From: Minisyncoccia bacterium
GTDB lineage: Bacteria; Patescibacteriota; Minisyncoccia; Phycocordibacterales; UBA9973
Direction: 5' to 3'
NCBI GenBank assembly: GCA_038249055.1
Contig: JBBRWS010000005.1
Location: 1,822 to 65,821 of the forward strand
DNA: 64,000 nucleotides
In this document: piece after piece, positions 16,385 through 33,834 of the stretch
How positions within the stretch are numbered: the first letter of the stretch is position 1
Layout: each line of letters starts with the position of its first letter
The notes under the pieces: model-generated
Databases searched by the model: none
What the model was told of the DNA's origin: nothing
The model's input: the letters and a program-made list of their open reading frames with translations, nothing else
Translations under genes and position numbers: made by a program

Positions 16385-16393
16385 AACTATTTT

Positions 16394-17875: not shown

Positions 17876-17907
17876 ATTTTTTACTATAGTTTCTAACTAG
17901 ACAGATA

Positions 17908-18939: not shown

Positions 18940-18991
18940 CTAAAGAAAGTAATATGTAGAAAGTAGAAAGAATATAAATCTATAATAAATA

Positions 18992-20824
18992 CTATTTATT
19001 ATTTGAAGCCAATAGTTCACTTTTTGCTTTTTTAATAGCAAGAATTTGAGAAGGGTCTGAGGTTATAATCTGGTCTTCTGTATATGAAGCAATTGTCTTT
19101 ATTGCGACGTGTTTTAAACCAGCAAAGAATATACCCTCCCCCACATTTGCTTCAAGTAATAGATATTTTTCTTCGTCGGTAAGATTGAAGGTTTTTTGGA
19201 GAACATCTATGGTTGCTGGCGATTGCTTTAGGAGTAATTGTATAGATGAGTTTGTAACAATAGGAATACCATACGGGCTTTTCATAAAATCCCCTACGTC
19301 TTGAGTAATAGTAGCAAGTCCTAAATAGTATTTTCTTCCACGTTTTGCAATTGAATATAAGAATGAAGCAGTATCTTCTGATTTCATCATCCACCAAGCC
19401 TCATCAACTACAAGTAATCTTTTTTTAATATTTTTACGAATAGCATTCCATATATAATGAGTAATTATATACATAGCAACAGGTTTAAGTTCGTCTTCCA
19501 TGTCTCTCACAGAGAAAACAATAAATTTTCTATTAATATCTACGTTTGATGGCTGGTTTAAGAAAGCAGACCATGAACCATGTGTATATTTAACTAAACG
19601 TTGCATAAGTGATTCACTCCCCTCCATACCAGAAAGAACAACTTCGAAGTCTGATAACATAGGAGGTTCAATATTCATAAAATCTGAATCAGTAGTAATA
19701 TCTTTTAGAGCGTATGTTTCAGTAATAGCCGCATCAATAATAGAATCTTCTTCTGGAGTAAGACCTCCAAGCATTATACGAAACAACCCAACAAGGTTTA
19801 TTGTGTTTGCTCTTAAAACATCTGCCCCTGTTTCTTCTCCTGTAGGTATTGGTAAATCAAATGGATTTATATGGTGGTCTGAAGATAAGGCAATATTAAA
19901 GTATCTACCTCCTACTGCTTCGGCTAAATATTCATATTCACGTTCAGGGTCTATTACAATAACTTCAGTATCAAACATTAGAGTACGAATTATTTCTAAT
20001 TTTGTTGCATAAGATTTACCCGCACCAGCAGTTGCAAAAGTTATAGAGTTATAGTTAGGTAAAGAAAATCTGTCAAAAAGAATTAAGCTGGAGTTGTGGC
20101 GGTTTACTCCATAGAGTATTCCTTTGTCTTCGGTTAGGTCAAAAGAAACAAAAGGAAAAATACTTGAAAGTGGTTCAGTGTTTAATTTTTGGTGTATACC
20201 TAATAGGTCTGTACCTAGAGGTATTACGCTCTTAAAACCCTCATTTTGCTGGAATAAAGCAGGTTTAAGATAAATAAGTTTTGATTCAAGAAGAGATTTT
20301 ATTTCATTCTCAATTTTAAATAAATCGTTATCATTTTCAGCATAAACTGTAATATAAAGTCCTACATCAAACATTTTTTCTTGGGCTTGCATAAGATTAT
20401 CTCTTAAATCTTCAAGATCTCTATATGCAGTATCAAGCATTGGATCACGAACAAGTCCTTTAGATTCACGAATAGAAATCTGACTTTGTACTTCAGCAAC
20501 CTTTTTTTGAAATGATCTTAATATTTCGGCGGTTTCAATTGGGTGTATAAAAATAGAAATATCAAAAACCTTATCCAAATTAACAATAGGAGAAAACCAA
20601 TTGTCACTCAAATATCTAGGATATGATATAACGAAAAAGGTTCTTGCTATTTTATCTCCAAGATTTAGTGATTTGGGTGTGATTTGAAGAGCAGAAGGTG
20701 CAATAATATCTTGAAGTTCAAGAGTTGCAGCTTTATATATTTCACTCGGCAAAACCGGCATAACCATGCTTTTATGGCTAGATAAATCTTTTTTGCCTCC
20801 AAATAATGATGATAATATTGACAT
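18992..20824 (-). CDS. virB4: VirB4/TraC/TrbE-family conjugal-transfer ATPase, ATPase (C-terminal) portion
   Basis: 610 aa; Walker A FATAGAGKSY, Walker B LLVVDEAWWMM (VirB4-type DEAW), conserved C-terminal motifs. Confidence 0.8.
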   Translation of the reverse strand: MSILSSLFGGKKDLSSHKSMVMPVLPSEIYKAATLELQDIIAPSALQITPKSLNLGDKIARTFFVISYPRYLSDNWFSPIVNLDKVFDISIFIHPIETAEILRSFQKKVAEVQSQISIRESKGLVRDPMLDTAYRDLEDLRDNLMQAQEKMFDVGLYITVYAENDNDLFKIENEIKSLLESKLIYLKPALFQQNEGFKSVIPLGTDLLGIHQKLNTEPLSSIFPFVSFDLTEDKGILYGVNRHNSSLILFDRFSLPNYNSITFATAGAGKSYATKLEIIRTLMFDTEVIVIDPEREYEYLAEAVGGRYFNIALSSDHHINPFDLPIPTGEETGADVLRANTINLVGLFRIMLGGLTPEEDSIIDAAITETYALKDITTDSDFMNIEPPMLSDFEVVLSGMEGSESLMQRLVKYTHGSWSAFLNQPSNVDINRKFIVFSVRDMEDELKPVAMYIITHYIWNAIRKNIKKRLLVVDEAWWMMKSEDTASFLYSIAKRGRKYYLGLATITQDVGDFMKSPYGIPIVTNSSIQLLLKQSPATIDVLQKTFNLTDEEKYLLLEANVGEGIFFAGLKHVAIKTIASYTEDQIITSDPSQILAIKKAKSELLASNNK

Positions 20825-21103
20825 CCCGTTAGAGATAGGAAGCGCCTAATCTATTTTTAAGATAACGCTTTCCCATTCCCGATTTTAAATATAATTCTCT
20901 CGACCGAGATTTTTCTTCGCTCTTACATGCTTCATAATAAATAATTTCAAACGGTCCTCTTCCTTTTGCATAAACAGACAGACCATTGTTGTGTTGTAGA
21001 AGGCGTTTCCGTAAATCTTTTGTACTTCCTGTGTATATATTACCATCTTTTTTACTTTTTAATATATAGGTGTAATAAAACATATATAATCTCTAACGGG
21101 ACC
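20822..21103 (-). promoter_or_regulatory. Instance 3 of the inverted-repeat element: 5' arm GGTCCCGTTAGAGAT directly before the GIY-YIG ATG; 3' arm CTATCTCTAACGGG directly before the virB4(C) ATG; the GIY-YIG ORF occupies the loop
   Basis: Perfect 13-nt arm complementarity (TCCCGTTAGAGAT / ATCTCTAACGGGA); TACAAT -10-like hexamer just upstream of the 5' arm. Confidence 0.5.
20829..21083 (-). CDS. GIY-YIG domain-only endonuclease (UPF0213/YhbQ-like)
   Basis: 84 aa; YTYILKSKKDGNIYTGSTKDLRKRLLQHN matches the GIY-x10-YIG / R / E catalytic layout. Confidence 0.7.
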   Translation of the reverse strand: MFYYTYILKSKKDGNIYTGSTKDLRKRLLQHNNGLSVYAKGRGPFEIIYYEACKSEEKSRSRELYLKSGMGKRYLKNRLGASYL

Positions 21104-21108
21104 AGTTA

Positions 21109-21762
21109 TTATTGTATTTTCATTCCCTGGCTAGTATCTCCTGGGTTAAATGTCTTATAAAAAAGTTCGACAACTTGATCTGTTTTAAGTTCAGATGTTC
21201 TTATTCCAACTCTACCGAGACCACTCATAATAACTCCTACTCTTTGGTCGAGTTGTGTTCTTTTTTCTTCAAAAGAAGCCAAATCCATAGCCTTCTTCGT
21301 ATCCTCTACTTGTTTTTTAGGAGCACTTCCACCAAGGAAACCCTCCATTATTTTATTGCCGGATTTTATTACAGTAGGACTATATGGAACAACAATAAAG
21401 AATGTTTTTGTCATTATGTTTACTTCGTCTGTAAAAGATTTAATAAAATCTATATATTCTTTGGTCTGAATTTTCAAAAGAGGCTCTGCTTGTTCTTTTA
21501 GTCTAACTTCTAGAGTAAGAAGATATGGTCGTATATCTAATCTGCGGGATTGCATACATATTTGAGTAGGAAAATCTAAGCCGTTTATAAAATTTTGGAA
21601 TTCATGTATGATGGCAGCTTGTTCGTCGGATGATTTTAAGGAAAGGTTTAAGGAAGATGCCAATAAAACAGCACGAAGACTACCATCTTTTAAAACAATG
21701 ATACCATTTCGAACTTCTTTTATTGGGACAAACTCTTGTGAACTCTTTGCGCTAATAGCCAT
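21109..21762 (-). CDS. VirB4/TrbE N-terminal domain protein (CagE_TrbE_VirB-like), separate ORF upstream of the ATPase portion
   Basis: 217 aa; IVLKDGSLRAVLLASSLNLSLKSSDEQAAIIHEFQNFINGL resembles the VirB4 N-terminal region (hydrophobic-KDGS-hydrophobic, EE..-rich second block). Confidence 0.5.
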   Translation of the reverse strand: MAISAKSSQEFVPIKEVRNGIIVLKDGSLRAVLLASSLNLSLKSSDEQAAIIHEFQNFINGLDFPTQICMQSRRLDIRPYLLTLEVRLKEQAEPLLKIQTKEYIDFIKSFTDEVNIMTKTFFIVVPYSPTVIKSGNKIMEGFLGGSAPKKQVEDTKKAMDLASFEEKRTQLDQRVGVIMSGLGRVGIRTSELKTDQVVELFYKTFNPGDTSQGMKIQ

Positions 21763-21874
21763 AAATATAATTAACCCATAGGGTGATTCTGTTGAATCAT
21801 AATTAACAATTACTAATTAAAAACAAAATAAGAACTTACTACAAACATTGTATCATAATATTATTAATTCTAAA

Positions 21875-22294
21875 TTATTTACTCCCCTCATCTTTTCCCT
21901 GCACGTCTAAACTCCAAGAAAGATCCTTGATTTTATTAGTTGTTGTCATTGGTACAATAGATACCAACGGCGCAGTCTGTGAATCTTCCTCTTTTTCTTT
22001 GTCACCCGGTTTTACTAGTCTTTGTTTCCATATATATAATTTACTGGACATAAGATAATTAATGCCAGCCTCAAGATAAAAGATAAAAGGTTTTTCATTA
22101 ATTTTATAAAAAACCAGAAGAAAAGATAAAGTTCCTACTATTAGAATCGGAATAAGTCCAAGCCAAAAACCAAGAATTTTATATATAACAAATATTATTC
22201 CTCCCCCACCTAAAAGATATATAAATTGACGAAAAGAAAATGGGCCAAACAGCTTATCTTCGACGTCAATAAATTGTGGAACTTTAAATTGCAT
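21875..22294 (-). CDS. Small two-TM membrane protein, VirB3/PrgI-like candidate
   Basis: 139 aa; hairpin of two TMs at residues about 25-75; directly upstream of the VirB4 N-terminal ORF as in Gram-positive T4SS operons. Confidence 0.35.
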   Translation of the reverse strand: MQFKVPQFIDVEDKLFGPFSFRQFIYLLGGGGIIFVIYKILGFWLGLIPILIVGTLSFLLVFYKINEKPFIFYLEAGINYLMSSKLYIWKQRLVKPGDKEKEEDSQTAPLVSIVPMTTTNKIKDLSWSLDVQGKDEGSK

Positions 22295-22338
22295 AATTAT
22301 TTTTTTATTTCAATAACACTTCCTACTTCCTACTTATC

Positions 22339-23394
22339 CTAAAACGCTTCTCGATATGGGTCGTGTGATTTTAGAGGCTGTTTTAATTTATCTCCTGTGT
22401 CATTTGCAGAAGGGGTCGTCATTTTTGTGGCAGTATAATCAGATACTGTGTGATCACTCATGGTCACACTTTTTAATTTCTCTTCCAAAATACTCATTGG
22501 AATATCTTTTGGCATACTATCTATACCGGGAGTAGTTTCGATTTTTTTTATTGGCCAAGAATCTTTTAATTCATCTTTTGTGGTGAGAGGTAATTCTATC
22601 CCTTCTGTTTCCATATTGGTTTGCTTGGTTTTTTCTTCAATTTCTGGAGCACTGCTTATTTTAGCTTCTTTTTTTGCATAAGGAGGAAGAGGTACATCTT
22701 CTCCACTTTCAACTTCTAGTGGTGCACTTTTTGTTATCTCATCTCCTTTATGTAACATTAAATCTCTAATATTTTTTAAAATATTTTCATTTACATCTTT
22801 TACAAGATTTGTAAGATTTTCTTTTGAAAGGACTATTTTAGAGTTTATACCACCTTCATATTCATCTGGGTGTATTTTATTTTGAATTAAACTAACCGTA
22901 AGGTCCTCCAAAATACCCTGCTGTTCAATATTGAGTTTATATTCTTTTGATATTTCGTAAAGTTTAATTCTCCAATCAGAGATGGCTATTGCTTCTTGAA
23001 TATCTTTTGGCATGCTAATAAAACGAGGGTCAAGAATTAATGGCTTGTTAACAAAGACTACTTTTTCTTTTTCAAAAATCTTTTTTTCTAACCCTGATTG
23101 TATTTTTTTGAAGATTTGCCTATCTAATTCATTTAATAGGTCAGACACTTCATTTTTTGATAACAATAATCTTTTTTCCAGTTCACTCTCATACTCATCA
23201 GGGTTTAAAATTCCGCAAAGAAGAAGCTCTGTTTCTGTTGTTAGGTTGTCAATTTGTTCGACTGTATATTTATCGTTCATCCCTTCTATAACATATTTCC
23301 AATTTACAGCATCAATAGCCTCCTTGCTTTCTTTTGTAAGTAGTTTTTTTGCTTCATCTATTTTAATTTGTAATATGTCTGTTGTGTAATCCAT
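22339..23394 (-). CDS. Hypothetical acidic coiled-coil protein (paralogous N-terminal domain shared with 23409..23861)
   Basis: 351 aa; N-terminal approx. 100 aa align with the neighbouring ORF (ILQxKI, AIxxVxW, IxxLxxETxLxLxGxxN). Confidence 0.45.
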   Translation of the reverse strand: MDYTTDILQIKIDEAKKLLTKESKEAIDAVNWKYVIEGMNDKYTVEQIDNLTTETELLLCGILNPDEYESELEKRLLLSKNEVSDLLNELDRQIFKKIQSGLEKKIFEKEKVVFVNKPLILDPRFISMPKDIQEAIAISDWRIKLYEISKEYKLNIEQQGILEDLTVSLIQNKIHPDEYEGGINSKIVLSKENLTNLVKDVNENILKNIRDLMLHKGDEITKSAPLEVESGEDVPLPPYAKKEAKISSAPEIEEKTKQTNMETEGIELPLTTKDELKDSWPIKKIETTPGIDSMPKDIPMSILEEKLKSVTMSDHTVSDYTATKMTTPSANDTGDKLKQPLKSHDPYREAF

Positions 23395-23408
23395 TTTTTT
23401 ATTTTTGT

Positions 23409-23861
23409 TTATAAACGATTATTTAAAGACGGAAGTTTAATATTTGTATTATTTTCTTCGTTTAAAAAAGCTGAATAATCTCCACCCGAAATAATAAAAT
23501 TTATTGTTTGCTTCCAATTTAATTGTTTGCTTCCTAAATTATTTCTTATATCGTCTTCAATTTTTATTGCTACTGGTTTAAATATTTTTTCAGTAATTTC
23601 ATCCGTTATTTTTTTGAGATCATCCTCTTTTAATTGAATCTCGTTTTGAATATTAAAAGAAAAATTATTTAAATTAACTAAACCCGTTAAAATTAATCCT
23701 GTTTCTACTTGTAATCTTTCTATCTCTTCATCAATAAGTCCAAATTTTATTCCAACCTCTTCAGTTTTTTTAACCCAGTCAACAGAATTAATAGCATCCC
23801 GATTTATTTTTGGAAGCTTTAATATTTCATCTTTAATTTTTTGTTGTAATATTTCTGTCAT
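23409..23861 (-). CDS. Hypothetical protein, paralog of the N-terminal domain of 22339..23394
   Basis: 150 aa; see alignment above. Confidence 0.45.
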   Translation of the reverse strand: MTEILQQKIKDEILKLPKINRDAINSVDWVKKTEEVGIKFGLIDEEIERLQVETGLILTGLVNLNNFSFNIQNEIQLKEDDLKKITDEITEKIFKPVAIKIEDDIRNNLGSKQLNWKQTINFIISGGDYSAFLNEENNTNIKLPSLNNRL

Positions 23862-23870
23862 AAATTTATA

Positions 23871-26621
23871 TTAATGAGTTGGTGCGTGCCCAGCACTTGC
23901 GGGGGCTGTTCCTGCTGGTTTTGCTGCTGCTGCAGGTGTTGGGTGTGCAGGCGCAGGACTTCCCCCTCCTCCATGTGAACTAACACTTTTGGTTACAATA
24001 CCTAATCTTATATTATCTACGGCTTCATCGGTACCCTTTCTTGTACTTCCTGCAGATAAAATATTAGCCCATTTGTTTAAATTACTGCCAAGCATTGTCG
24101 CGTATTCTTTTGCAAGCTGATTACTGTCGTGTTCAATTTTGTGATCAATATCTTTAATTTCTTTGGTAACACCTATTATATTTTTACCGTTTTGTGCACC
24201 TGTATCAGTATAATAATTATTCGTTCCAGCAATTTGACCACCAGATTTAATATTACTTAATTTACTATTTTCTACTCTAATTTCAGTAGAAATTCTAGCC
24301 CTTTCACCTGGGTCTGCTTCATCACTTAGTTGTTGTCTTAGTCTAACTAGGTTAGCGTCAATATCATGAATATCTTTTGAGTATTTATCCTCAATAATTT
24401 TTTTATCAACATTTGCCTTTCTTTTTTTGATTTCACTATCTTTATTAACAATTTTCTTGAGGTCTTCTGCTCTCTTTGTTCTTTTTGCAAGTTTATCTTC
24501 TTCTGCTTTTTTATAGCCACCCTCTTTTGGCTTACCGAGACTCTTTAATCCAGTATCAGAGAGACCTTTACCTGCAATTTTTACTCCACGAAGGTCCATA
24601 CTTCCACTACCCGCAGCTGCTCCACCCTTCAATAACATTTTAGCCCCAAATCCCTTAATTCCACCTTTTGATTCAATCTCAGCTAATTTACTTGAACTGG
24701 CCATTTTACTACCCAATCTACCAAGTGTTGCCCTTCCAGCTATTGCTGCTCCTCCAGTTGCTACTCCAAGAGCAAGTCCTCCTGCAACTGCTCCAACTTT
24801 TGATATAGCAGCACCTACTTCTCCAGACATATCTACAGCGATACTTTTTGCTTTCATTAGAAGAATCATTATAAAAGCGAAAGGAACTACGATAGCAATA
24901 ACAAAAGTCAATCCACCCTTACCTGTTTTCATACTAGCATCAATGATACCAAGTCCTTTATCCATAAATCCCACAATAATATACATAAAAAATGCAAACA
25001 CAGGAGCAACAAAAGCCATTTTTAAAGTATCTGGCCACCATTTTTTCCACCCTATCATTTTTATATCTTGAAGTTGGGGTACTATATAACTAAAAAATGC
25101 GAGAGGTGCCAAAATCATTGCTAGCCATAGTCCGACAACTCTTGCTATAAAAACAAAAGCGGAAGACAAAAAAGCTATAGTTCCAACGATGTTTACGGCC
25201 GTTGCAAGGAAAATAACTATTATAAAAGTACCAGTTGAAATACCCTGTTTTGTTTTTGTTTGGTCTTCACCGGTCATAGTTCCTCTAATTGGTATAGACT
25301 CAACTTCACTGGCTCTCATTATAAGTTCTTGTGGATTTACTTTTGAAACAATAGCTTCAGATAATTTAATTTCTCCAAAATCACCCAATTCACTTTTAGT
25401 TGGAAGAGGGTTACCACTAGCATCTTTTTGGGCAGTACCAGTAACAATTGTTTTTTGATTATAAAATACTCGAGTTAAAATATTTGAAGCATCTATTATT
25501 ACTTGGGTTGCAAACAAACTAAAATTTATCAAAAGCCCGATAATAACAACATTTATTATCATTTCTTTTGTTTTGACATTGTGTAAATTTAAAATAGTTC
25601 CAAATGCAATATAGAGCAAAACGAAAATAAAGAACATATTACAAAAATCTTTTACTATTCCCCATCCTTCTACAACAAAAGATGAACGATAAGAAGTGTC
25701 ACTAATAGAATACATCAATGTAAAGTCTAATGCTTTTCCAGAAAGACCAAAAACAAATGAAGATGTTTTAAAAAATAAGTAATATAGAGCTTGAGCAATA
25801 CAACCTGAAAACCAAGAACTTGGGCTAGTAACATCACAAGTTGGAAGATCTCCAGCATTGCTTCCTTCTGATATTTTAACTTCACCACTACCCAGAGCAC
25901 CTATATTTTGTTGTATTTTGTTTGCAGTTGTTAAAGGATTTAATGTTGCTGCAGGAAAGTAACTTTTTTCTTCTGTAACTCCAGAAATTGATTCTCCATT
26001 ACCCTCCGCACTTCCGCACTGCGACGCCGTACAAGCAAGATAGTATAATGTTGTTTTATAAGAAGTATCTGGTTCCAATTGTGTAAAGTCGCCATTTATA
26101 TTTTTTCTAATAGAAATATCCAACTCTATACTAGTAGGCATTGTAGATTCCCCTCTCATTTCTGTATAATTTTTACCAGGTGGAGTTAAAATAAATGAAG
26201 TAGCATCTAACCACCCAACTTTATTTGTTTTTAAATTTTCAAATTTTAAAATAAAAGTATTAGGAGTTTCAAAATTTTTACAAGCACCCCCTAAAGTAAG
26301 AACACACGTCGCAATATTACCTGAAGTTGCTACATATTTCCAAGCATCGCTTGCGTTGGAATTTTTAGGTAATCCCGTATCTAATATAAGATGTAGGTCT
26401 GCAGTTGCCAGTGTTTCATCTACGTAAGTTGTATTATTGCGACTTAAAATACTAGCTGAAAAGTTTTGAGTGAATGCTTCTTTTGAGCCATCTCTTTCTA
26501 CTGCTTCTGCTTTTGAACTTTTTATTTCTATACTTTTTCCATCTAACCCAACACTAATAGGCGCGAAGAGATTCGCGAAGATGATAAAAGATATTAAAGT
26601 ATATGATAAAACTTTTTTCAT
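23871..26621 (-). CDS. Large polytopic membrane protein with signal peptide and Pro/Ala-rich C-terminal tail; VirB6/TrbL-like candidate
   Basis: 916 aa; N-terminal signal; about 300-aa periplasmic region; at least 6 TMs between residues about 290-620; coiled-coil; C-terminus GGGGSPAPAHPTPAAAAKPAGTAPASAGHAPTH encoded by a locally GC-rich segment. Confidence 0.35.
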   Translation of the reverse strand: MKKVLSYTLISFIIFANLFAPISVGLDGKSIEIKSSKAEAVERDGSKEAFTQNFSASILSRNNTTYVDETLATADLHLILDTGLPKNSNASDAWKYVATSGNIATCVLTLGGACKNFETPNTFILKFENLKTNKVGWLDATSFILTPPGKNYTEMRGESTMPTSIELDISIRKNINGDFTQLEPDTSYKTTLYYLACTASQCGSAEGNGESISGVTEEKSYFPAATLNPLTTANKIQQNIGALGSGEVKISEGSNAGDLPTCDVTSPSSWFSGCIAQALYYLFFKTSSFVFGLSGKALDFTLMYSISDTSYRSSFVVEGWGIVKDFCNMFFIFVLLYIAFGTILNLHNVKTKEMIINVVIIGLLINFSLFATQVIIDASNILTRVFYNQKTIVTGTAQKDASGNPLPTKSELGDFGEIKLSEAIVSKVNPQELIMRASEVESIPIRGTMTGEDQTKTKQGISTGTFIIVIFLATAVNIVGTIAFLSSAFVFIARVVGLWLAMILAPLAFFSYIVPQLQDIKMIGWKKWWPDTLKMAFVAPVFAFFMYIIVGFMDKGLGIIDASMKTGKGGLTFVIAIVVPFAFIMILLMKAKSIAVDMSGEVGAAISKVGAVAGGLALGVATGGAAIAGRATLGRLGSKMASSSKLAEIESKGGIKGFGAKMLLKGGAAAGSGSMDLRGVKIAGKGLSDTGLKSLGKPKEGGYKKAEEDKLAKRTKRAEDLKKIVNKDSEIKKRKANVDKKIIEDKYSKDIHDIDANLVRLRQQLSDEADPGERARISTEIRVENSKLSNIKSGGQIAGTNNYYTDTGAQNGKNIIGVTKEIKDIDHKIEHDSNQLAKEYATMLGSNLNKWANILSAGSTRKGTDEAVDNIRLGIVTKSVSSHGGGGSPAPAHPTPAAAAKPAGTAPASAGHAPTH

Positions 26622-26654
26622 TTATTATCTAACAAAACCATTATAGCATTTTAA

Positions 26655-26690
26655 TTTAATATTAAATTAAAATGCTAATTTTTTAAACAA
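26655..26690. repeat. Perfect AT-only palindrome TAGCATTTTAATTTAAT/ATTAAATTAAAATGCTA between two co-oriented cluster genes
   Basis: 16-bp perfect inverted repeat; candidate operator or weak attenuator. Confidence 0.4.
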
Positions 26691-26800
26691 AAACTTAACT
26701 AAAAACTTCAGATTCATTTCATCTCCACTTCCTAATTTAATTATTAATTAGTAGTTTTGATTTAATAAAATCTCTCCTAGATTAATTATTAATTAAACCA

Positions 26801-29800
26801 CTACCAAATATTTAAAATTCTTTCTGTGCTATTCATATCTATGCTATCTACCCATTTACAACCCCTATCTATATTTTGATAATAATTACTAGGAAGTCCT
26901 CCCTCTGATCCTGTTTTTAATCCAGTTCCCCATGCCCAACAGTTTGAATATTCATTATTACCTATATTAAAGTTATTAAAGGTATCACAATCAATTCCGT
27001 CTGTAGTTTTACCTGTAAAATATCCAGATGCAACCCTGCATGATACATTTCTACCACTAGCATTATATATAGGTTCTAATAAACCAACTTCAGTGTAGCC
27101 AAATTGATCAGTGTCGGTGTCTGCTATTTTGTAAGGGTATGAACCATTTGTTCCTTTTGTATACCATGGATTTCCATGTCTAATTCCTGTAAAACCATTA
27201 GCATAAGGATTCGTTCCAAGATTAAATACAAAATTACTGTTTGCTTCTCTTGCAAATTCTGCTCCAGAATTAGCTTCACACAAATCTTTGTTACGTGAGC
27301 AAAAATCATTAAAACCACTATTATCATTTAGTTCCAAGTAGCATTTTTTTGTTAGGTTATCAATTTGACTAGCAAAATTTGTATTCTGTTCAATCTCATT
27401 ATATATTGTTGAAATATCTTCTACTGTTTTAAGGGATGATGATATTAGATAAAATTTGCGAAGCAATATGTCCAGTTGTGCTTTTTCTGCATCGTTAAAT
27501 GTTAAAGGGTTTTGTTCTATTAATAAACATTTATTGGCTCCACCACTTTCACATTTGTCCCCGTTTACAACTTTAGGTGGCTTACAGTCAGATTTATTTA
27601 TACATGCTTTTGTCTCAGTATCAGTTATCATCGGAGAAACACAAGGTCCAGGAACTTCACACTTGTCCCCAATTACAATTTTAGGTGACTTACAATCAGA
27701 TTTATTTATACATGCTTTTGTCTCAGTATCAGTTATCATCGGAGAAACACAAGGTCCAGGAACTTCACACTTGTCCCCAATTACAATTTTAGGTGACTTA
27801 CAGTCAGATTTATTTATACACAGTTTAGTTTCAGTGTCTGTGATTTTTGGAGAAAGACAAGGTACTGGTAATGAACTTGTTACTGTAAATGTTGTCCAGG
27901 CTCCACAGTTATTGTTTTCATTTACTTCTGTAATTAATCCATCGTCTACTGCTGATTTTTTATCTGCACAGGCACGTATATAATATGTACCCGCAGAAGT
28001 AAATTTATATGAAACTTTTGCAGTGTTACTAGTTTTTGGTGACATTATTGGAATAGTAACATCAAGCGACACCAGAGAAGAAGAGTTAGATGAGCTACTT
28101 GTACCAGGATTACTTTGAGTTATTGCAAAGAAAGATGAAAATGTTTTTAAAGTAGAACCACCCCCAATATTTGTTATTGTTGAGGAAAGCGTTGTTTGTG
28201 TATTTATAAGAGAGCTTGCAGGAGTAACATTTCCAGCTGTTAAATCAGGTTCTGTTCCTGAAGGAGAAGTTGATTCTGAGTTGTGTTCAGCTACATATTC
28301 TTTATTTAAATCCCCATTAACGTGACACTCAGGATCCGCATTGTCTATTAGTAAGTCGTTGTCGTTATTATTTATTTTATCGTTACATTCATATTTTGTT
28401 TCACCAAATCCACTTACAAAAATATTTACAAAACCAGCACCTGAGCCGAGATCTCCTTTACAGGTTACAGAGTATGAAGTATTTTCTGTAAGTGGTCCTG
28501 TTTCAAAAGAGCCAGCAGTAGCAGTTCCTCTTCCAGTTCCTGCATCACAAGATGTACTGTTTGTTGAGGTCCAATTAATAGTTGAAGAAGCTCCAAGTGC
28601 AACTGAACTCGGACTGGCAGTAACTTTGACTGTTGGAAAAGTATTACTTCCACCGGTAACAAAAACATAAACACTATTGTTGCTTGAACCGTTTAATCCC
28701 GTACATGTTACTGAATATGAATTACTGTCTTTGAGTGGTCCTGTTTCAAAAGAACCAGAAGTTCCAGACCCCCTTCCAGTTCCTGCGTCACAAGACGTAC
28801 TGTTTGTGGAAGTCCAACTTATAGTTGAAGATGCACCAGGAGCAACTGAACTTGGGCTAGCTGTAACACGGACTGTTGGAAATTTATTTCCAAAACCAAA
28901 ATCGTCACAAGTAGGAGGATTTATTGCTCCGTTTATACATTTATTAGAATCAATAGGACCAGTAGTACAAACAGGAGGATTTGTTGCTCCATTTATACAT
29001 TTATTAGAATCAATAGGACCAGTAGTACAAACAGGAGGATTTGTTGTTCCATTTATACACTTGTTGTCGGTACCCACGTTACAAATCTCAGGATTTATTG
29101 CTCCATTTAGACATTTATTATCAGAAGTAATAGTACAAAGCGGAGGATTAATTGTTCCATTTATACACTTATTGTCAGAAGTAATAGTACAAAGCTGAGG
29201 ATTTGTTGCCCCATTGAGACACTTGTTGTCAGAGCCAATAGTACAAAGCTGAGGATTTGTTGCCCCATTGAGACACTTGTTGTCAGAGCCAATAGTACAA
29301 AGCTGAGGATTTGTTGCCCCATTAAGACATTTATTATCGGAGCCCACAGTACAAATTGGAGGATTAATTGTTCCATTTATACATTTATTATCAGAAGTAA
29401 TAGTACAAAGTGGAGGATTAATTGTTCCATTCACACATTTATTTTCAGAACCTATAGTACAAAGCGGAGGATTAATAGCTCCATTAATACATTCACTTTC
29501 TAAAATACTATCGCAAAGAGGAGGGTTGTTTGCTTTGTTTAGACACGTATTGTCAGAGTTAATAGTACAAAGCGGAGGATTAATTGTTCCATTTATACAT
29601 TTATTATCAGACCCTACAGTACAAAGCGGAGGATTAATTGTTCCATTTAAACATGAACCATTTACTAAAATAGTACAAAGTGGAGGATTAATTGTTTCGT
29701 TTAAACATAAATTACGTGAAACTGTAGTACAATTTGGGGGGTTGTTTGCCCCATTTAAACATAAATTATTTGAGTCTATAGTACAAAGTGGAGAATTAAC

Positions 29801-30775
29801 CGCTCCGTTTACGCATGCTTTTTTAGAGGGAGTCACGTTAAATAAATTATTTAAAAATCTAGAGAAAGAATCAAAAAAAGTATTTGTAGCTCCACTGTTT
29901 CTTATTGTAATTCTACCACTACCCTCATTGGATATATTTTCATTTGCGATACCGAATACCGAACTTCCTGCGGTTGTTTTTATTATTGTAGGATTGAAAA
30001 GAGATACGCCATCACCTTTTTTAAGATCTTCACCTGCTTGAGCTATTATTTTTAAAGAATTACCAAAAAGATTTTCGTCTCCTGGAGAACCCCAAGCTCT
30101 TGTGTTGGGATTAAACAACCACTCTCCTCCACTAGGATTCAATGTCCAAACTTTTGTATTTGAATCATAAACCCAACCACCTGTTGGTGGTACAGGGACG
30201 GTCTCAGGTGAAACCCAGGCTCTAGCTGTTGAATCATAAACCCAACCTCCGCCAGTTGTACTTAGTGTCCATTTTCTTGTATCGGAACTGTATATCCATC
30301 CACCTACTGGCTGTGATGGAATACCTTGCGGTGCAATCCATTTTCCTGAATTAGAATTAAATACCCACTCTCCTTTGTTTGGATTAAGTGTCCATTCGCC
30401 TTTTCCTGGGTTAAATTTCCAACCCCCAATATTTAAGGTATTGTTATTTATTAAAATTTCCCCTTTATCATTATATTTTATGTCACTTAATGCAAAACCA
30501 AACACATCCGTGCCCCCGGTTGCTTTTATTACAATTGGATTTACTAGAGATACCTCATCCCCCTTTTTTATATCACCACCTGCTTTAGTTGTTATAGATA
30601 CACCTTTTGAGTTACTTGATGGTAACAAAGGAGAAAATATTTTAGCAATAGTGTTTGAAGTTTTTACACCAAAAATATCTCGATTTTTGATTAATAAATA
30701 TCCCAAAATCAAAAGAAATAGAATAACAATCAATGTTATTATTAGCGCTTTACTTTTTTTGGGTTTATTTTCCAT
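26801..30775 (-). CDS. Giant repeat-rich cell-surface protein (1324 aa) with Trp-repeat region, about 12 Cys-containing 19-20-aa repeats (CxNGxxNPPxCTxxSDNK), two ~75-aa Ig-like repeats and three ~40-aa CxSPxITDTETKxCINKSDCK repeats
   Basis: N-terminal TM/signal; internal periodicity visible at protein level and as perfect DNA repeats (e.g. 57-60-nt units at about 28.96-29.32 kb; ~120-nt units at about 27.6-27.85 kb). Confidence 0.55.
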   Translation of the reverse strand: MENKPKKSKALIITLIVILFLLILGYLLIKNRDIFGVKTSNTIAKIFSPLLPSSNSKGVSITTKAGGDIKKGDEVSLVNPIVIKATGGTDVFGFALSDIKYNDKGEILINNNTLNIGGWKFNPGKGEWTLNPNKGEWVFNSNSGKWIAPQGIPSQPVGGWIYSSDTRKWTLSTTGGGWVYDSTARAWVSPETVPVPPTGGWVYDSNTKVWTLNPSGGEWLFNPNTRAWGSPGDENLFGNSLKIIAQAGEDLKKGDGVSLFNPTIIKTTAGSSVFGIANENISNEGSGRITIRNSGATNTFFDSFSRFLNNLFNVTPSKKACVNGAVNSPLCTIDSNNLCLNGANNPPNCTTVSRNLCLNETINPPLCTILVNGSCLNGTINPPLCTVGSDNKCINGTINPPLCTINSDNTCLNKANNPPLCDSILESECINGAINPPLCTIGSENKCVNGTINPPLCTITSDNKCINGTINPPICTVGSDNKCLNGATNPQLCTIGSDNKCLNGATNPQLCTIGSDNKCLNGATNPQLCTITSDNKCINGTINPPLCTITSDNKCLNGAINPEICNVGTDNKCINGTTNPPVCTTGPIDSNKCINGATNPPVCTTGPIDSNKCINGAINPPTCDDFGFGNKFPTVRVTASPSSVAPGASSTISWTSTNSTSCDAGTGRGSGTSGSFETGPLKDSNSYSVTCTGLNGSSNNSVYVFVTGGSNTFPTVKVTASPSSVALGASSTINWTSTNSTSCDAGTGRGTATAGSFETGPLTENTSYSVTCKGDLGSGAGFVNIFVSGFGETKYECNDKINNNDNDLLIDNADPECHVNGDLNKEYVAEHNSESTSPSGTEPDLTAGNVTPASSLINTQTTLSSTITNIGGGSTLKTFSSFFAITQSNPGTSSSSNSSSLVSLDVTIPIMSPKTSNTAKVSYKFTSAGTYYIRACADKKSAVDDGLITEVNENNNCGAWTTFTVTSSLPVPCLSPKITDTETKLCINKSDCKSPKIVIGDKCEVPGPCVSPMITDTETKACINKSDCKSPKIVIGDKCEVPGPCVSPMITDTETKACINKSDCKPPKVVNGDKCESGGANKCLLIEQNPLTFNDAEKAQLDILLRKFYLISSSLKTVEDISTIYNEIEQNTNFASQIDNLTKKCYLELNDNSGFNDFCSRNKDLCEANSGAEFAREANSNFVFNLGTNPYANGFTGIRHGNPWYTKGTNGSYPYKIADTDTDQFGYTEVGLLEPIYNASGRNVSCRVASGYFTGKTTDGIDCDTFNNFNIGNNEYSNCWAWGTGLKTGSEGGLPSNYYQNIDRGCKWVDSIDMNSTERILNIW
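27560..29720. repeat. Intragenic perfect and near-perfect tandem DNA repeats inside the giant surface-protein gene
   Basis: Identical 57-60-nt units in tandem (x2 and x3) and ~120-nt units; all in-frame coding repeats. Confidence 0.7.
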
Positions 30776-30801
30776 AATTTATTTAATATATTAACTATTT
30801 A

Positions 30802-33800
30802 TTATCTTCGATATCCACTACCACCACTAACAGATGTTCTTGTTCCACTAGTACCTGGATTTACATAACCAGGACAAGTTGGGTCGTTCTTGTCTGCTAA
30901 TCCATTTAAGTCATCATCTATTCCGTTAAAACATCTTTCAAAATCAACAGATATATTTGAAATAGAGCTTGCATCATAAACTTGAATATTTTCTTCAGCA
31001 AAACATTCCTTATATTCTTTTAAGTAGTCTTCCTTAGATAGAATTTTACCAGTAGTTACTAATTCATTTATACATGCGTAATATTCTCTATCACAAGCGA
31101 CAGTACCACGTTCATTTTCCATACACTCAGTTTTAGCATCTTCACATGTTGATGTTGCGGTTGAATTAATTTTATTTATTTGTAGTAATAAATTAGCATC
31201 GCGTCTGTTTTGAGCGGCCACAATTATTTTACTAACTTCAGTTCTAATAGATTCAAGTTTAGAAATATTTATTTTTGCCTGAGCGACAGAATCACTGTAT
31301 TCTTGTTTTGATTTATAAATCTCATTATCATAAAAGATAATGTCTTTTGTTAAATCATAACCACCTGCAGCCATTGGCATATATGATGGATTTTTATAAG
31401 TATTTGCGGGTTCAGATTCTACTTCAACGTATTCCTTAGTTACATTATTGAAATATAGTCTATTGATCATTTTATCAAATGAGTCATAAAACCCCTGGAA
31501 CAAGAAATTGTTTACATAATCTGTAAAGCTGTCTTTATATCTTGTCCTCAATTGTATTCTGTCGTCTTCATCTGAACTTAATTTAGAATTATTGTCGTAA
31601 GTATAACTTCCCCCACTAGCATCCCAAAATCTAGTAAAAGTCCATATCAAATTCCATTGAGATTTCCACCCAGTTAAAAGTGTTGCCCATACTTTTTGGT
31701 TATCTTTATAAATATTTTGCAAATTATCATATGTCCATTGACCAGGACCATCTATTTTTACTCCAAATCTTTTATTTGAGCTATCGATTGCACCCACAAA
31801 TATTGAACCAACCCAATTTTGATATGCACTTTGTGCCTCAGCTGAATTTGATTTGTAGCTTGGATTTGGGCCAGGAAGACAGTAATCTAACTCTCCTAGT
31901 TTTGGCATTACTGTGGGTAAAACTTTTAGTATTTCAGTTGCAGCAACTACATAATCTTGTTGTATTTGAATGACACCACGGTTTTTTATAGGACTAGGTT
32001 GTCCTTTTTTCCAGTTTTGCCACTCATATCCATTCCAGAAAGCTCTATCGCCAACTTGCCATCCGTTATATCCATTATCAACAATCTTTGTGTTTCCTGG
32101 AGTTGTTACTTCCCAATATATATTTGTAGATATTTGGTTTTTGTTGTCATCATATACTGGAGGCAGATAACCACTCATTATTTGATCAAATTTGTCTGTT
32201 CTATTTATACTAGAATTTGCATTCCAAGTTCCTGCTTTATATGTATTTTCGTGTATATAAGTATTTCCTAAATCTCTGGTTAAATTAAACCCATCATAAG
32301 CGCCGTTGTTATCATATGGAGTGTTTCCATCTAAACTAGTAAAACTATTTATGTTGTCAGTCCAATTTGATGTATTTTCTACTTTATCTGAAAGCCCAGA
32401 AAGACCACCACCTTCTAGTTTTGAAATTAAAATAGAAAATAAAGCATTTAGCGAGTCATTTATGGTTTTTGCAAGTTCGAGCTGGCGTTCTGGGGAGTTT
32501 AGATAATTGGTTGTCTTATCTCGGATAATGCTTCCTGGTGTTGTTATTTTCCAATCAACACACTTGTCGAAATTTGGAGTTGTTGTACTTTTTGTTGGTT
32601 TAAATACCGATGTGGTCATAGTTTTTAAACCAGCAGCGGCAGATTTGGCAGAGATGGATGGAGTTTCTTTAAGAGGGTCACCTTCTTTGTCGTACCACTG
32701 CCACAATATGCACTCCTTTTGACTTAAAAATCCATTATTTTCAGCGAGTTGAGATTTTTGTTCCGTAACCTGTTGGACTTGGGTGTTTGTTAAATATTGA
32801 TTAGCAAGCATACTAAAACCCAAAGGATTGTTTTGGTCTCTTTGTGTTAATGCCATATACCCATCCCAACCACCCACAGAAAAATCATTTTGAAAATTAT
32901 TGTTTGCTTGTTGAGCTCTTTGAAGAGCTGTTTGAGTATTGTCTACTTGGTTTAATTGATCATTTGAATAAAAAGATTTTGGGTCTGAAATAAAAGCTCC
33001 TAAATCAGATTGAAGTCCCCCAAGAAAACCAGAGGAACTTGCCCCCACTCCTAAATTGCTTCGACTACTTGTTATTTTTGTTTCAGCAAATTCTCTAGCA
33101 TATGGATTTCCAAAAGCTTTATCAAGAAGGATGTCTGTTCCTGTTTCGATTACATTTCTTTCAATACTATTTGTAAAATTACGCATATTTTGAACGAAGA
33201 AGGGGTTACCTCCATATCCAGAATTCACCCAATTCATTGCACTACGAGTCATAGCGGTAAGTTGATTCTTTGCAAGAGTAATAGCAATTCCATCTAAACA
33301 TTGCTCCTTTGTGGATGTTTCAGCTGCTTGCTCATTTGCCTTATTTAATTCTTGGATAGTTTCTTTGCTTGTTGCATCAACGGCAGCTTTACACGCGTCT
33401 TCTCCTCCAATTTTTAATTCTTCAAGCCCTGTTTTTAATGCAGTAACTAAATCATTAACAAAAGGAATTGAACCTACTCCTGCTTCAGCACCTGTCTTTA
33501 TTCCAGCACAGGCTGTTCTAAGTTGTTCCCTTGTTTTTTTTATTTTATCTGCAGCAGCAAGTGCTGTTTTTTTAGGAGATTGTATAAATTTAATCATCCA
33601 AGTTGAAACTTTGTTTACAATACCTGTACACCCAACAACGTTTGTAAGTAAGTTTGAATTTACAACATCACTAATTTTAAATTTGTATGGATTGCTGCCT
33701 CCTTGGTTTGGGTTAGAATAAAGGTCGGACATATTAGTGGCTGCATATGTAGGTAAAGCAAATTGAAAAATAGATACTATAAATACAAACATAATCAATC

Positions 33801-33834
33801 CTGAAATTATTTTTGTGATAGTTTGTTTATTCAT
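30802..33834 (-). CDS. Large secreted protein (1010 aa), hypothetical; Cys-rich C-terminal module
   Basis: Cleavable-looking signal (..FALPTYAATN); no recognisable enzymatic motif. Confidence 0.45.
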   Translation of the reverse strand: MNKQTITKIISGLIMFVFIVSIFQFALPTYAATNMSDLYSNPNQGGSNPYKFKISDVVNSNLLTNVVGCTGIVNKVSTWMIKFIQSPKKTALAAADKIKKTREQLRTACAGIKTGAEAGVGSIPFVNDLVTALKTGLEELKIGGEDACKAAVDATSKETIQELNKANEQAAETSTKEQCLDGIAITLAKNQLTAMTRSAMNWVNSGYGGNPFFVQNMRNFTNSIERNVIETGTDILLDKAFGNPYAREFAETKITSSRSNLGVGASSSGFLGGLQSDLGAFISDPKSFYSNDQLNQVDNTQTALQRAQQANNNFQNDFSVGGWDGYMALTQRDQNNPLGFSMLANQYLTNTQVQQVTEQKSQLAENNGFLSQKECILWQWYDKEGDPLKETPSISAKSAAAGLKTMTTSVFKPTKSTTTPNFDKCVDWKITTPGSIIRDKTTNYLNSPERQLELAKTINDSLNALFSILISKLEGGGLSGLSDKVENTSNWTDNINSFTSLDGNTPYDNNGAYDGFNLTRDLGNTYIHENTYKAGTWNANSSINRTDKFDQIMSGYLPPVYDDNKNQISTNIYWEVTTPGNTKIVDNGYNGWQVGDRAFWNGYEWQNWKKGQPSPIKNRGVIQIQQDYVVAATEILKVLPTVMPKLGELDYCLPGPNPSYKSNSAEAQSAYQNWVGSIFVGAIDSSNKRFGVKIDGPGQWTYDNLQNIYKDNQKVWATLLTGWKSQWNLIWTFTRFWDASGGSYTYDNNSKLSSDEDDRIQLRTRYKDSFTDYVNNFLFQGFYDSFDKMINRLYFNNVTKEYVEVESEPANTYKNPSYMPMAAGGYDLTKDIIFYDNEIYKSKQEYSDSVAQAKINISKLESIRTEVSKIIVAAQNRRDANLLLQINKINSTATSTCEDAKTECMENERGTVACDREYYACINELVTTGKILSKEDYLKEYKECFAEENIQVYDASSISNISVDFERCFNGIDDDLNGLADKNDPTCPGYVNPGTSGTRTSVSGGSGYRR

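What the first reader, a model, noticed from the sequence alone, without database searches (positions are those of the whole stretch)
26801..30775. Giant surface protein with perfect intragenic DNA repeats: candidate for recombinational length variation
There are at least four repeat families at protein level: a W-containing ~24-aa repeat near the N-terminus, ~12 Cys-pair 19-20-aa repeats (C-x-NG-x-x-NPP-x-CT), two ~75-aa Ig-like modules and three ~40-aa CxSPxITDTETKxCINKSDCK modules. Several units are 100% identical at DNA level (e.g. 57-60-nt units around 28.96-29.32 kb; ~120-nt units around 27.62-27.85 kb). That implies very recent duplication or gene conversion and a capacity for copy-number switching, which is typical of adhesins under antigenic or host-range selection.
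Basis: seen in the sequence. Interest (0 to 1): 0.55.

Follow-up and report, generated by a model that had tools for sequence, protein, structure and literature searches.

The report
Repeat-built surface protein of a Patescibacteria T4SS operon
This is a real 1324-residue, membrane-anchored, cysteine-rich surface protein built from tandem repeats; it is the fastest-evolving and most length-variable gene in a conserved type IV secretion operon of an ultra-small (Patescibacteria) bacterium, so it is a candidate host-contact part of a machine whose function is still unknown.

Summary
ORF 26801-30775 (-) encodes 1324 aa with five internal repeat families. It holds exact in-frame DNA duplications of 107, 87 and 55 nt. 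It has 33 direct-repeat pairs of at least 16 nt, all in frame, against none in six other large genes.

The gene sits in a fixed slot of a chromosomal, oriC-proximal, Gram-positive-type T4SS operon (PrgI/VirB3, TrsD, VirB4, pilin) of a Paceibacteria-like bacterium. Twenty-one related loci keep the same gene order. VirB4 stays about 91% identical, while this protein drops to about 26% and ranges from 295 to 1652 aa.

The N-terminal anchor and a C-terminal ~240-aa domain that matches no described family are conserved. The middle is a swappable stalk. Each close relative has amplified a different unit variant.

Length change by recombination is supported on evolutionary time. Rapid switching or antigenic variation is untested. 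An adhesin or spacer role for the T4SS is inferred, not shown. The closest analogue is H. pylori CagY. Assembly may under-count the perfect units.

The parts
26801..30775 (-). Whole gene, 1324 aa
   Evidence: ORF. An identical protein is in the public collection (P0001, NCBI, 81.7-kb contig). Orthologues sit in 21 syntenic loci.
30689..30745 (-). N-terminal signal-anchor helix (aa 11-29), preceded by MENKPKKSK
   Evidence: Hydropathy peak 3.26, the only TM-like segment. The N-terminus is identical or near-identical in P0002, P0003 and L023-L030.
30428..30607 (-). Membrane-proximal small beta-domain, copy 1 (aa 57-116; motif AGxDIKKGDxV...G.A..DI..G..GEI)
   Evidence: Conserved in about 40 homologues. 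It has weak, sub-threshold similarity to the Phage_cement_2 family, to a phage Gp34.65 protein and to the phi29 capsid fibre.
30059..30427 (-). Three 41-aa W-rich blocks (aa 117-239)
   Evidence: Present in only about 11 homologues. Duplicated as a second block in P0002.
29816..30058 (-). Small beta-domain copy 2 plus linker (aa 240-320)
   Evidence: It aligns with copy 1 in alignment A3.
28886..29815 (-). Array of 17 Cys-pair units (CxNGxxNPPxC + 7-9 aa linker), 54-nt period; holds 34 Cys
   Evidence: The consensus C-[LTI]-N-G-A-T-N-[PY]-P-x-C-T was built from 461 units in 77 homologues. No Pfam or NCBIfam match. The AF2 model failed, pLDDT 42.
29183..29323 (-). 141-nt tract that is exactly periodic at 54 nt (units aa 483/501/519)
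   Evidence: 87-nt exact match at offset 54.
28932..29046 (-). Two 60-nt units, 59/60 identical (aa 573 and 593)
   Evidence: 55-nt exact match at offset 60.
28397..28885 (-). Two Ig-like beta-sandwich modules (aa 631-793)
   Evidence: 81% DNA identity. Partial Pfam NOMO1-like_9th hit. Four copies each in P0003 and P0002.
28325..28387 (-). Degenerate acidic double-disulfide motif CNDKINNNDNDLLIDNADPEC (aa 797-817)
   Evidence: Regex match. Clearer copies occur in orthologues. The neighbouring 1010-aa protein hits NF033662.
27905..28249 (-). CARDB domain (aa 843-957)
   Evidence: Pfam PF07705, 32.5-38.2 bits against a cut-off of 22.7.
27536..27859 (-). Three 36-aa four-Cys modules (CxSPxITDTETKxCINKSDCKxPKxVxGDKCE)
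   Evidence: Includes the 107-nt exact duplication, 27588-27694 and 27696-27802.
26804..27529 (-). Conserved C-terminal 'head' domain (aa 1083-1324): helical half (LLRKFYLI...), GNPWY, variable Cys-containing half, terminal ...ERILNIW
   Evidence: Alignment A1. 209 representatives among 1.84 billion proteins, and in the listed full-length matches it lies at the protein's C-terminus. AF2 gives the first ~100 aa as helical with pLDDT 64-92 and the rest as poor. No Pfam, NCBIfam or PDB match.
30802..33834 (-). Upstream operon neighbour: 1010-aa secreted protein (signal peptide, 14 Cys, acidic disulfide repeat at the C-terminus)
   Evidence: Syntenic in all loci; median 40% identity.
23871..26621 (-). 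Downstream neighbour: 916-aa polytopic membrane protein in the VirB6/PrgH position
   Evidence: Signal peptide plus at least 6 TM-like segments. Syntenic. No HMM or PDB support for VirB6 homology.
14879..23861 (-). Rest of the T4SS cluster. In transcription order: 150-aa and 351-aa proteins, PrgI/VirB3 (21875-22294), TrsD/TraC-like (21109-21762), VirB4-type ATPase (18992-20824), 343-aa protein, pilin-like protein (16394-17875), PG-binding protein (14879-16384)
   Evidence: Pfam and NCBIfam hits. Synteny.

Best explanation
The gene encodes a single-pass, N-terminally anchored extracellular protein of a Paceibacteria-type (Patescibacteria/CPR) bacterium. It is probably stapled by up to 31 disulfides.

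It has three conserved parts: a membrane anchor, a membrane-proximal beta-domain, and a C-terminal ~240-aa 'head' that ends in ...ILNIW. Between them lies a stalk assembled from interchangeable modules: W blocks, Cx9C units, Ig-like modules, a CARDB domain and four-Cys modules.

It occupies a fixed slot in the chromosomal, oriC-proximal, Gram-positive-type T4SS operon. That slot lies between a secreted 1010-aa protein and the polytopic membrane protein at the VirB6 position. I infer that it is the exposed accessory of this machine, a spacer or adhesin that holds the conserved head at a lineage-specific distance from the cell.

Its length and composition change through in-frame unequal recombination or slippage between repeat units. 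That produces lineage-specific amplification and homogenisation of the array.

Shown: the gene, its repeats, the topology signals, the synteny, the extreme divergence and length range, and the concerted evolution of units.

Inferred: physical association with the T4SS, an adhesin or spacer role, disulfide bonding, and the recombination mechanism.
For: Gene and repeats.

Topology: one N-terminal TM segment. Cys count is 0 in aa 1-320 and 62 after that. Cytoplasmic operon proteins have 0-1 Cys.

T4SS neighbours: PrgI, TraG-P-loop VirB4, T4SS_pilin, PG_binding and TrsD. dnaA and dnaN lie 2-5 kb beyond the cluster, and no relaxase or coupling protein was found among the ORFs scanned. This matches the published description of Patescibacteria T4SS (PMC12102498).

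Synteny: identical gene order in L001, L003-L021 and L031.

Divergence: median global identity to the window is VirB4 90.7%, TrsD 83.9%, PrgI 66.9% and this protein 25.8%. Its length coefficient of variation is 0.24.

Conserved ends, variable middle.

Minimal forms: 295-316-aa members carry an anchor, a G/S/T/P-rich linker and the helical head. One of them (P0157) was checked and sits in the same slot.

Repeat turnover: the Cys-unit count is 0-23 among homologues. Exact repeats of 60-117 nt occur in orthologues L003, L004, L009, L010, L020 and L022. Central units are more alike within a gene than between orthologues, while edge units are orthologous. The window, P0002 and L023 each amplified a different unit.
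Against: No experiment or structure links this protein to the T4SS. The link is conserved position only.

No known T4SS or adhesin HMM matches it. It has no LPXTG and no RGD.

The head model is only half confident, and the Cys-array model failed.

The conserved head could bind a self component rather than a host.

Only 2-3 units per family are near-identical, so turnover may be slow.

The neighbour called 'VirB6-like' has no sequence support.
Confidence: 0.55

Rival explanations
1. Contingency locus. The perfect repeats drive frequent, reversible copy-number switching within a population, giving antigenic or host-range variation. pylori cagY behaves.
For: There are exact in-frame repeats of 87-107 nt, and all 33 repeat pairs of at least 16 nt are in frame. 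Each close relative carries a different amplified unit. RuvB and RuvC are encoded in the window. The CagY precedent is documented in PMC2194252, PMC3585145 and PMC5954226.
Against: Only 2-3 near-identical units exist per family, and the other Cys units are 50-94% identical. There are 33 potential events here against more than 300 per strain in cagY. In-frame offsets are expected for any coding repeat. No second allele of this strain exists in the collections searched.
Confidence: 0.2
2. Assembly artefact. The repeat region is mis-assembled, with collapsed, expanded or chimeric units, so the unit counts and perfect copies are not biological.
For: The closest relative's contig (L023) ends inside a perfectly periodic 54-nt tract. 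The window's perfect 54-nt tract is exactly 141 nt long. From my own knowledge, not checked here, 141 is the largest k-mer of a widely used metagenome assembler, so identical units could have been collapsed.
Against: The ORF is intact and in frame across 3975 nt. The units differ by scattered substitutions. Independent assemblies from other projects show the same kind of array in the same gene. The exact tracts (115-215 nt) are short enough to be spanned by ordinary reads. At most the copy number is under-counted; the feature itself is real.
Confidence: 0.1
3. A general envelope or surface-layer protein that merely travels with the T4SS genes. In this reading it has no role in secretion and serves cell-wall architecture or environmental binding.
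For: No homology to any T4SS subunit. It has CARDB and Ig-like modules. The Cys-pair repeat also occurs in other Paceibacteria-named proteins that lack the head domain. The whole block UvrD-KsgA-...-VirB4 is syntenic, so conserved gene order alone does not prove a functional link.
Against: The slot is kept in every locus examined, even when the protein shrinks to 295 aa. In the 21 loci examined the head domain always lies in this slot. The gene is co-oriented with its upstream neighbour and only 26 nt downstream of it.
Confidence: 0.15

Closest known systems
Helicobacter pylori CagY (VirB10 orthologue with a middle repeat region)
   Same: It is a surface-exposed component encoded in a T4SS locus, with many direct intragenic DNA repeats whose recombination always keeps the frame and changes protein length (PMC2194252, PMC3585145, PMC5954226). 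Here all 33 repeat pairs of at least 16 nt are in frame.
   Different: There is no sequence homology and this is not a VirB10. The organism belongs to a monoderm-type lineage (PMC12857230) and the T4SS is of Gram-positive type. There are far fewer perfect repeats (33 pairs against more than 300). No within-population variation has been shown. The modules are Cys-pair, Ig-like and CARDB rather than the CagY motifs.
Enterococcus pCF10 surface proteins PrgA/PrgB/PrgC (MPF-FATA conjugation adhesins)
   Same: Per PMC12102498, Gram-positive T4SS classes rely on surface-exposed adhesins for cell-cell contact, and the Patescibacteria T4SS is related to this class. From my own knowledge, not checked here, prgA, prgB and prgC lie upstream of the VirB6/VirB3/VirB4-like genes, which is the same relative position as this gene.
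   Different: It has no LPXTG sortase signal, no RGD and no PrgB-type adhesin domain. It is anchored by an N-terminal TM helix instead. The published survey found no PrgB-like adhesins in Patescibacteria.
Tandem-repeat surface proteins of Gram-positive bacteria (Alp/Rib, SasG/Aap, Bap type)
   Same: They have a conserved anchor and a conserved end domain separated by a stalk of near-identical in-frame tandem repeats, and the repeat number varies between strains. This comparison is from my own knowledge, not tested here.
   Different: They have a different anchor, different folds, and often dozens of identical repeats. Here several unrelated repeat families are mixed and only a few copies are near-identical.
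Large Cys-rich extracellular proteins of CPR bacteria and DPANN archaea
   Same: They are membrane-anchored, Cys-rich, sometimes calcium-binding large surface proteins proposed to mediate symbiont-host contact (PMC6792436). CPR encode MdbA/VKOR-type disulfide machinery (bioRxiv 10.1101/335083).
   Different: Those reports are generic. I found no description of this family, of its head domain or of its T4SS slot in the papers I read.
Extended VirB6 proteins of Rickettsiales
   Same: They are T4SS components enlarged by big hydrophilic domains of unknown role (PMC12857230; PMC7648143 abstract).
   Different: In those the extension is fused to the polytopic VirB6 itself. Here the variable protein is a separate single-pass gene upstream of the polytopic protein.

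Membership tests
Patescibacteria MPF-FATA-like T4SS gene cluster (as defined in PMC12102498) | Encoded within 20 CDS of a virB4 gene and co-oriented with it | tested here: met
   VirB4-type ATPase is at 18992-20824 (-). Five ORFs of at least 100 aa on the same strand lie between it and this gene.
Patescibacteria MPF-FATA-like T4SS gene cluster (as defined in PMC12102498) | Other recognisable T4SS subunits present (VirB3/PrgI, TrsD, VirB2-like pilin); chromosomal and near dnaA; no relaxase | tested here: met
   PrgI, TrsD and T4SS_pilin hits. dnaA is at 11181-12554. No relaxase or T4CP among the ORFs scanned.
Patescibacteria MPF-FATA-like T4SS gene cluster (as defined in PMC12102498) | The protein itself is homologous to a described T4SS subunit | tested here: not met
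   No Pfam, NCBIfam or PDB match to any T4SS component. It is linked to the cluster only by conserved position in 21 loci.
PrgB-type conjugation adhesin | Cleavable signal peptide plus C-terminal LPXTG sortase anchor | tested here: not met
   No C-terminal LPXTG. The protein ends ...ERILNIW, and its only hydrophobic segment is N-terminal.
PrgB-type conjugation adhesin | PrgB adhesin or polymer-binding domain | tested here: not met
   No such Pfam hit, even at E<=1 on sub-segments.
CARDB-domain protein (Pfam PF07705) | Match above Pfam's gathering score | tested here: met
   32.5 bits for the whole protein and 38.2 bits for the segment, against a cut-off of 22.7; aa 843-957.
CagY-like recombining T4SS component / repeat-mediated contingency gene | Excess of direct DNA repeats of at least 16 nt, all giving in-frame products | tested here: met
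   33 pairs, all 33 in frame. None in six other large genes.
CagY-like recombining T4SS component / repeat-mediated contingency gene | Length variants observed within one strain or population | not testable with these tools
   No reads are available, and no near-identical contig exists in the collections. Only between-species variation was seen.
CagY-like recombining T4SS component / repeat-mediated contingency gene | VirB10 homology | tested here: not met
   No VirB10/TrbI hit.
Acidic double-disulfide repeat protein (NCBIfam NF033662) | HMM match | tested here: not met
   No NCBIfam hit for this protein at E<=0.01. Only a degenerate motif appears by regex at aa 797-817. The neighbouring 1010-aa protein has a sub-threshold hit (19.7 bits against a cut-off of 41).
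Phage_cement_2 / DUF2190-like beta-domain (PF09956) | HMM match above threshold | tested here: inconclusive
   E=0.007 and 17.1 bits against a cut-off of 24 for aa 57-107. Four of 28 family members hit at E<=0.05. The profile matches PDB Gp34.65 (E 0.014) and the phi29 capsid fibre (E 0.057). These agree with one another, but all are below significance.
Diversity-generating retroelement target | Nearby reverse transcriptase and a template repeat matching the variable region | tested here: not met
   No RT among the scanned ORFs. No copy of any part of the gene elsewhere in the window.

The most novel reading that the evidence does not exclude
The protein family in this slot is the missing host-contact subunit of the Patescibacteria T4SS. 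In this reading, a conserved C-terminal head docks the secretion or pilus apparatus, or the host envelope. It is carried on a stalk whose length and module content are re-tuned by intragenic recombination to match each host's surface. That would make it a main determinant of host range in these obligate epibionts, and a functional parallel to CagY evolved from unrelated parts.
Probability: 0.25. Interest if true: 0.65.

Novelty: new variant of a known kind. Interest (0 to 1): 0.42.

Why it matters
Two reviews describe the T4SS of Patescibacteria as essential in the one species tested, with a function that is 'completely unknown' (PMC11665869, PMC12857230). The one systematic survey reported that no adhesins were found with it (PMC12102498).

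This gene shows that the Paceibacteria version of the operon carries, in a fixed slot, an extracellular protein. That protein is about the most divergent and among the most length-variable genes of the cluster. It has a conserved head domain with no described relatives.

That gives a concrete candidate for host recognition or reach. It also gives a simple comparative handle, stalk length and module content against host or habitat.

The repeat architecture by itself is ordinary for surface proteins.

Tried and rejected
- AF2 model of eight Cys-pair units, using an alignment of arrays: pLDDT 41.8, unusable. MAFFT slid the self-shifted rows onto each other, so they added no information.
- PDB sequence and profile searches for the whole protein, the head and the N-terminal domain: nothing significant. 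The nanobody and SH3 hits at E>0.05 are chance.
- Pfam at E<=1 and NCBIfam on sub-segments: no family for the Cys repeat, the W blocks, the 36-aa modules or the head. The collection's precomputed annotation lists PF27509.1 for this protein. That model did not appear in my Pfam scans and may be missing from the local copy, so I could not identify it.
- VirB6 homology of the 916-aa neighbour: no support. I kept it only as 'in the VirB6 position'.
- DGR hypothesis: rejected.
- Promoter and terminator scan inside and around the gene: promoter-like sites were at background level. The terminator-like sites lie inside the coding sequence, three of them as copies in the 54-nt repeat units, so I do not read them as signals. 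Rfam found nothing in the region.
- Search for the same strain elsewhere, to look for length alleles: an exact 27-mer scan of metagenome contigs found nothing. The protein cluster has a single member. The exact look-up found no contig on record.
- The antisense ORFs of 109-175 aa inside the gene I regard as by-products of stop-free periodic sequence, not genes. I did not search for homologues of them.

Full report
THE OBSERVATION

The ORF at 26801-30775 on the minus strand runs from ATG to stop and encodes 1324 aa. Tandem Repeats Finder and the repeat finder report arrays with periods of 54 and 108 nt, and a 243-nt-spaced pair.

Reading the protein and comparing units at DNA level gives this layout:
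- an N-terminal hydrophobic helix (aa 11-29);
- a small beta-domain (aa 57-116), repeated at aa 240-296;
- three 41-aa W-rich blocks between the two copies (aa 117-239);
- seventeen Cys-pair units C-x-N-G-x-x-N-P-P-x-C with an 18-aa period (aa 321-630; two units are 20 aa);
- two Ig-like modules of 81-82 aa (aa 631-793);
- a degenerate acidic disulfide motif (aa 797-817);
- a CARDB domain (aa 843-957; Pfam 32.5-38.2 bits against a cut-off of 22.7);
- three 36-aa four-Cys modules (aa 973-1080);
- a non-repetitive C-terminal domain (aa 1083-1324).

The longest exact DNA duplications are 107 nt (offset 108), 87 nt (offset 54) and 55 nt (offset 60).

The gene contains 33 maximal direct-repeat pairs of at least 16 nt, all with in-frame offsets. 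Six other large genes of the window contain none, and the longest such repeat in the other 60 kb is 20 nt.

The unit counts and lengths need correcting, and 'giant' is too strong.

WHERE IT SITS

The window is low-GC (about 31%). It carries dnaA, dnaN, yidC, jag, rnpA, RuvB/C, a PBP, UvrD, KsgA, ComM and PNPase, so this is core chromosome next to the replication origin.

On the same strand as the gene lies a Gram-positive-type T4SS set. It comprises PrgI/VirB3, a TrsD/TraC-like protein, a TraG-P-loop VirB4 ATPase, a pilin-like protein and a peptidoglycan-binding protein. No relaxase or coupling protein was found among the ORFs scanned.

This is the arrangement described for Patescibacteria by Quinonero-Coronel et al. 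(PMC12102498). It is MPF-FATA-like, chromosomal, often near dnaA and without a relaxase. That paper states that no adhesins such as PrgB were detected.

All 77 homologues found in 5.8 billion proteins come from metagenomes or MAGs. The sources that give a name call them Paceibacteria, Nomurabacteria or Minisyncoccia.

THE FAMILY AND ITS SLOT

About 48 of the homologues share the C-terminal domain. It starts NKC.LIEQNPLTFTD.EKA.L..LLRKFYLI, contains GNPWY, and ends GCKW..G....ERILNIW.

A profile of this domain finds only 209 cluster representatives among 1.84 billion proteins. In the listed full-length matches it lies at the C-terminus of its protein.

In 19 species-representative genomes, two metagenome contigs (L001, L002) and one locus of a distant member, the gene order is the same wherever the flanks are long enough. 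It runs UvrD, KsgA, a 297-aa anchored protein, a ~1000-aa secreted protein, this protein, and a polytopic membrane protein. It continues with a 150-aa protein (not always present), a 351-aa protein, PrgI, TrsD, VirB4, a 343-aa protein, the pilin-like protein and the PG-binding protein.

Median global identity to the window across these loci:
- VirB4: 90.7%
- TrsD: 83.9%
- PrgI: 66.9%
- the 1010-aa neighbour: 39.8%
- the polytopic protein: 36.7%
- this protein: 25.8%

This protein's length ranges from 529 to 1262 aa in those loci (coefficient of variation 0.24). It reaches 1652 aa in P0002. It drops to 295 aa in P0157, which sits in the same slot and consists of an anchor, a G/S/T/P-rich linker and the helical half of the head.

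The anchor and juxtamembrane motif, the small beta-domain and the head are the conserved parts. Everything between them is replaceable.

REPEAT DYNAMICS

The number of Cx9C units among homologues ranges from 0 to 23. The syntenic orthologue P0003 has none, but it has four Ig-like modules. P0002 has a second W block and a second Cys array.

Exact intragenic repeats of 60-117 nt recur in the orthologous gene of L003, L004, L009, L010, L020 and L022.

In the window and in P0002, central Cys units are more similar within a gene than between the two genes, whereas the first and last units pair up as orthologues. This is the pattern expected of unequal exchange in a tandem array.

Each of the three closest sequences has amplified a different unit:
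- the window: CLNGATNPQLCTIGSDNK
- P0002: CLNGTTNPPLCTLTSGGS
- L023: CLNGTVNPPLCTTTSSGS

Length change by intragenic recombination is therefore well supported on evolutionary time.

It is not shown within a population. No second copy of this strain exists in the collections I could search. In the window only two or three units per family are near-identical, and the other Cys units are 50-94% identical.

ASSEMBLY CAVEAT

The contig of the closest relative (L023) ends inside a perfectly periodic 54-nt tract. Assemblers do break in these arrays.

The perfect 54-nt tract of the window is exactly 141 nt long. From my own knowledge, not checked here, that equals the largest k-mer of a common metagenome assembler. 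A collapse of further identical units cannot be excluded.

The feature itself is not an artefact. The frame is intact, the units differ by scattered substitutions, and independent assemblies show the same architecture.

HOW IT PROBABLY WORKS

Topology signals are clear. There is a Lys-rich N-terminus followed by one hydrophobic helix. There are no Cys in aa 1-320 and 62 after that. The cytoplasmic proteins of the operon have 0-1 Cys.

CPR bacteria are reported to carry MdbA/VKOR-type disulfide machinery. None is encoded in this window.

I infer an N-in, C-out protein whose ectodomain is a disulfide-stapled chain of small modules carrying the conserved head at its far end. The minimal 295-aa relatives replace the modules by a low-complexity linker. 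The core function therefore lies in the anchor and the head, and the middle acts as a spacer.

The helical half of the head is strongly conserved across the family, which suggests a conserved partner, possibly another part of the T4SS. The second half is full of insertions between the conserved GNPWY, SGYYYG and GCKW motifs, and could face the host. These last points are inference.

The small membrane-proximal domain shows convergent but sub-threshold similarity to phage cement and fibre-base domains. I treat this as a lead only.

COMPARISON WITH KNOWN SYSTEMS

The closest functional analogue is H. pylori CagY. It is a surface-exposed T4SS subunit whose direct repeats recombine in frame and change its size and function (PMC2194252, PMC3585145, PMC5954226).

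This protein passes the repeat-excess and in-frame test. It is not a VirB10 homologue, has about ten-fold fewer repeat pairs, and has no demonstrated within-strain variation.

It resembles the PrgA/B/C adhesins of Gram-positive conjugation systems in role and, from my own knowledge, in position. It lacks LPXTG and any PrgB domain.

It fits the general notion of large Cys-rich surface proteins of CPR and DPANN. I found no description of this family or of its T4SS slot in the papers I read.

VERDICT

This is a real, repeat-built surface protein. The repeat phenomenon is ordinary. The context is modestly new: it is the hypervariable, fixed-slot extracellular member of a Patescibacteria T4SS operon, and its conserved head matches no described family.

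Interest is 0.42. Novelty is a new variant of a known kind.

Noticed in passing
window 9831-34763: The whole T4SS-like cluster (14.9-34.8 kb) lies directly next to dnaN, dnaA, rnpA, yidC and jag (9.8-14.8 kb). This reproduces the published observation that Patescibacteria T4SS genes sit near the replication origin (PMC12102498).
   Followed up: partly
homologues P0045, P0046, P0050-P0052, P0058, P0060, P0061, P0065, P0066: A second set of homologues carrying the same Cys-pair repeat lacks the head domain. They end instead in a conserved short C-terminal motif (K)KP-I/T/N-[FY]-[IK]-E-[NDR], for example KKPIFIEN and PIYKER. This might be a lineage-specific sorting or anchoring signal.
   Followed up: no
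L023 5593-5716 (contig end): The contig of the closest relative stops inside a 124-nt perfectly periodic 54-nt tract of the orthologous gene. This is an assembly break caused by identical units.
   Followed up: yes
window 29183-29323: The perfectly periodic 54-nt tract is exactly 141 nt long. From my own knowledge, not checked here, that equals the largest k-mer of a common metagenome assembler. This may be coincidence, or it may be a trace of collapsed identical units.
   Followed up: no
L031 8001-8888 (P0157); also P0154, P0170: Minimal 295-316-aa members of the family have an anchor, a G/S/T/P-rich low-complexity linker and only the helical half of the head. P0157 occupies the same operon slot.
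   Followed up: partly
window 30802-33834 (-): The upstream 1010-aa secreted neighbour is also fast-evolving (median 40% identity). It ends in an acidic double-disulfide-type motif (NF033662, sub-threshold). The same motif type recurs, often in several copies, in orthologues of the studied protein.
   Followed up: partly
window 26640-26648 (-), in the 179-nt gap after the gene: TGCTATAAT, an extended -10-like element, lies 19 nt upstream of the ATG of the 916-aa membrane protein. The studied gene may therefore end a transcription unit, with the core T4SS genes starting a new one. A gap of about 60-360 nt is present at this position in the related loci too.
   Followed up: no
window 14879-34763, operon proteins: Cys content separates compartments sharply. 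VirB4, PrgI and the 150-aa and 343-aa proteins have 0 Cys. TrsD and the 351-aa protein have 1. The pilin-like protein has 15, the 1010-aa protein 14 and the studied protein 62.
   Followed up: partly
window 27456-30794 (+): Five antisense ORFs of 109-175 aa lie inside the gene, and their translations are themselves periodic. They look like by-products of stop-free repeat sequence rather than genes.
   Followed up: no
window 1379-3079 (+) and 49848-50783 (+): A PilB/T2SSE-type ATPase (type IV pilus or competence) and a tyrosine recombinase (Xer-like or integrase) are encoded elsewhere in the window. Four tRNA genes cluster at 55.8-57.9 kb.
   Followed up: no
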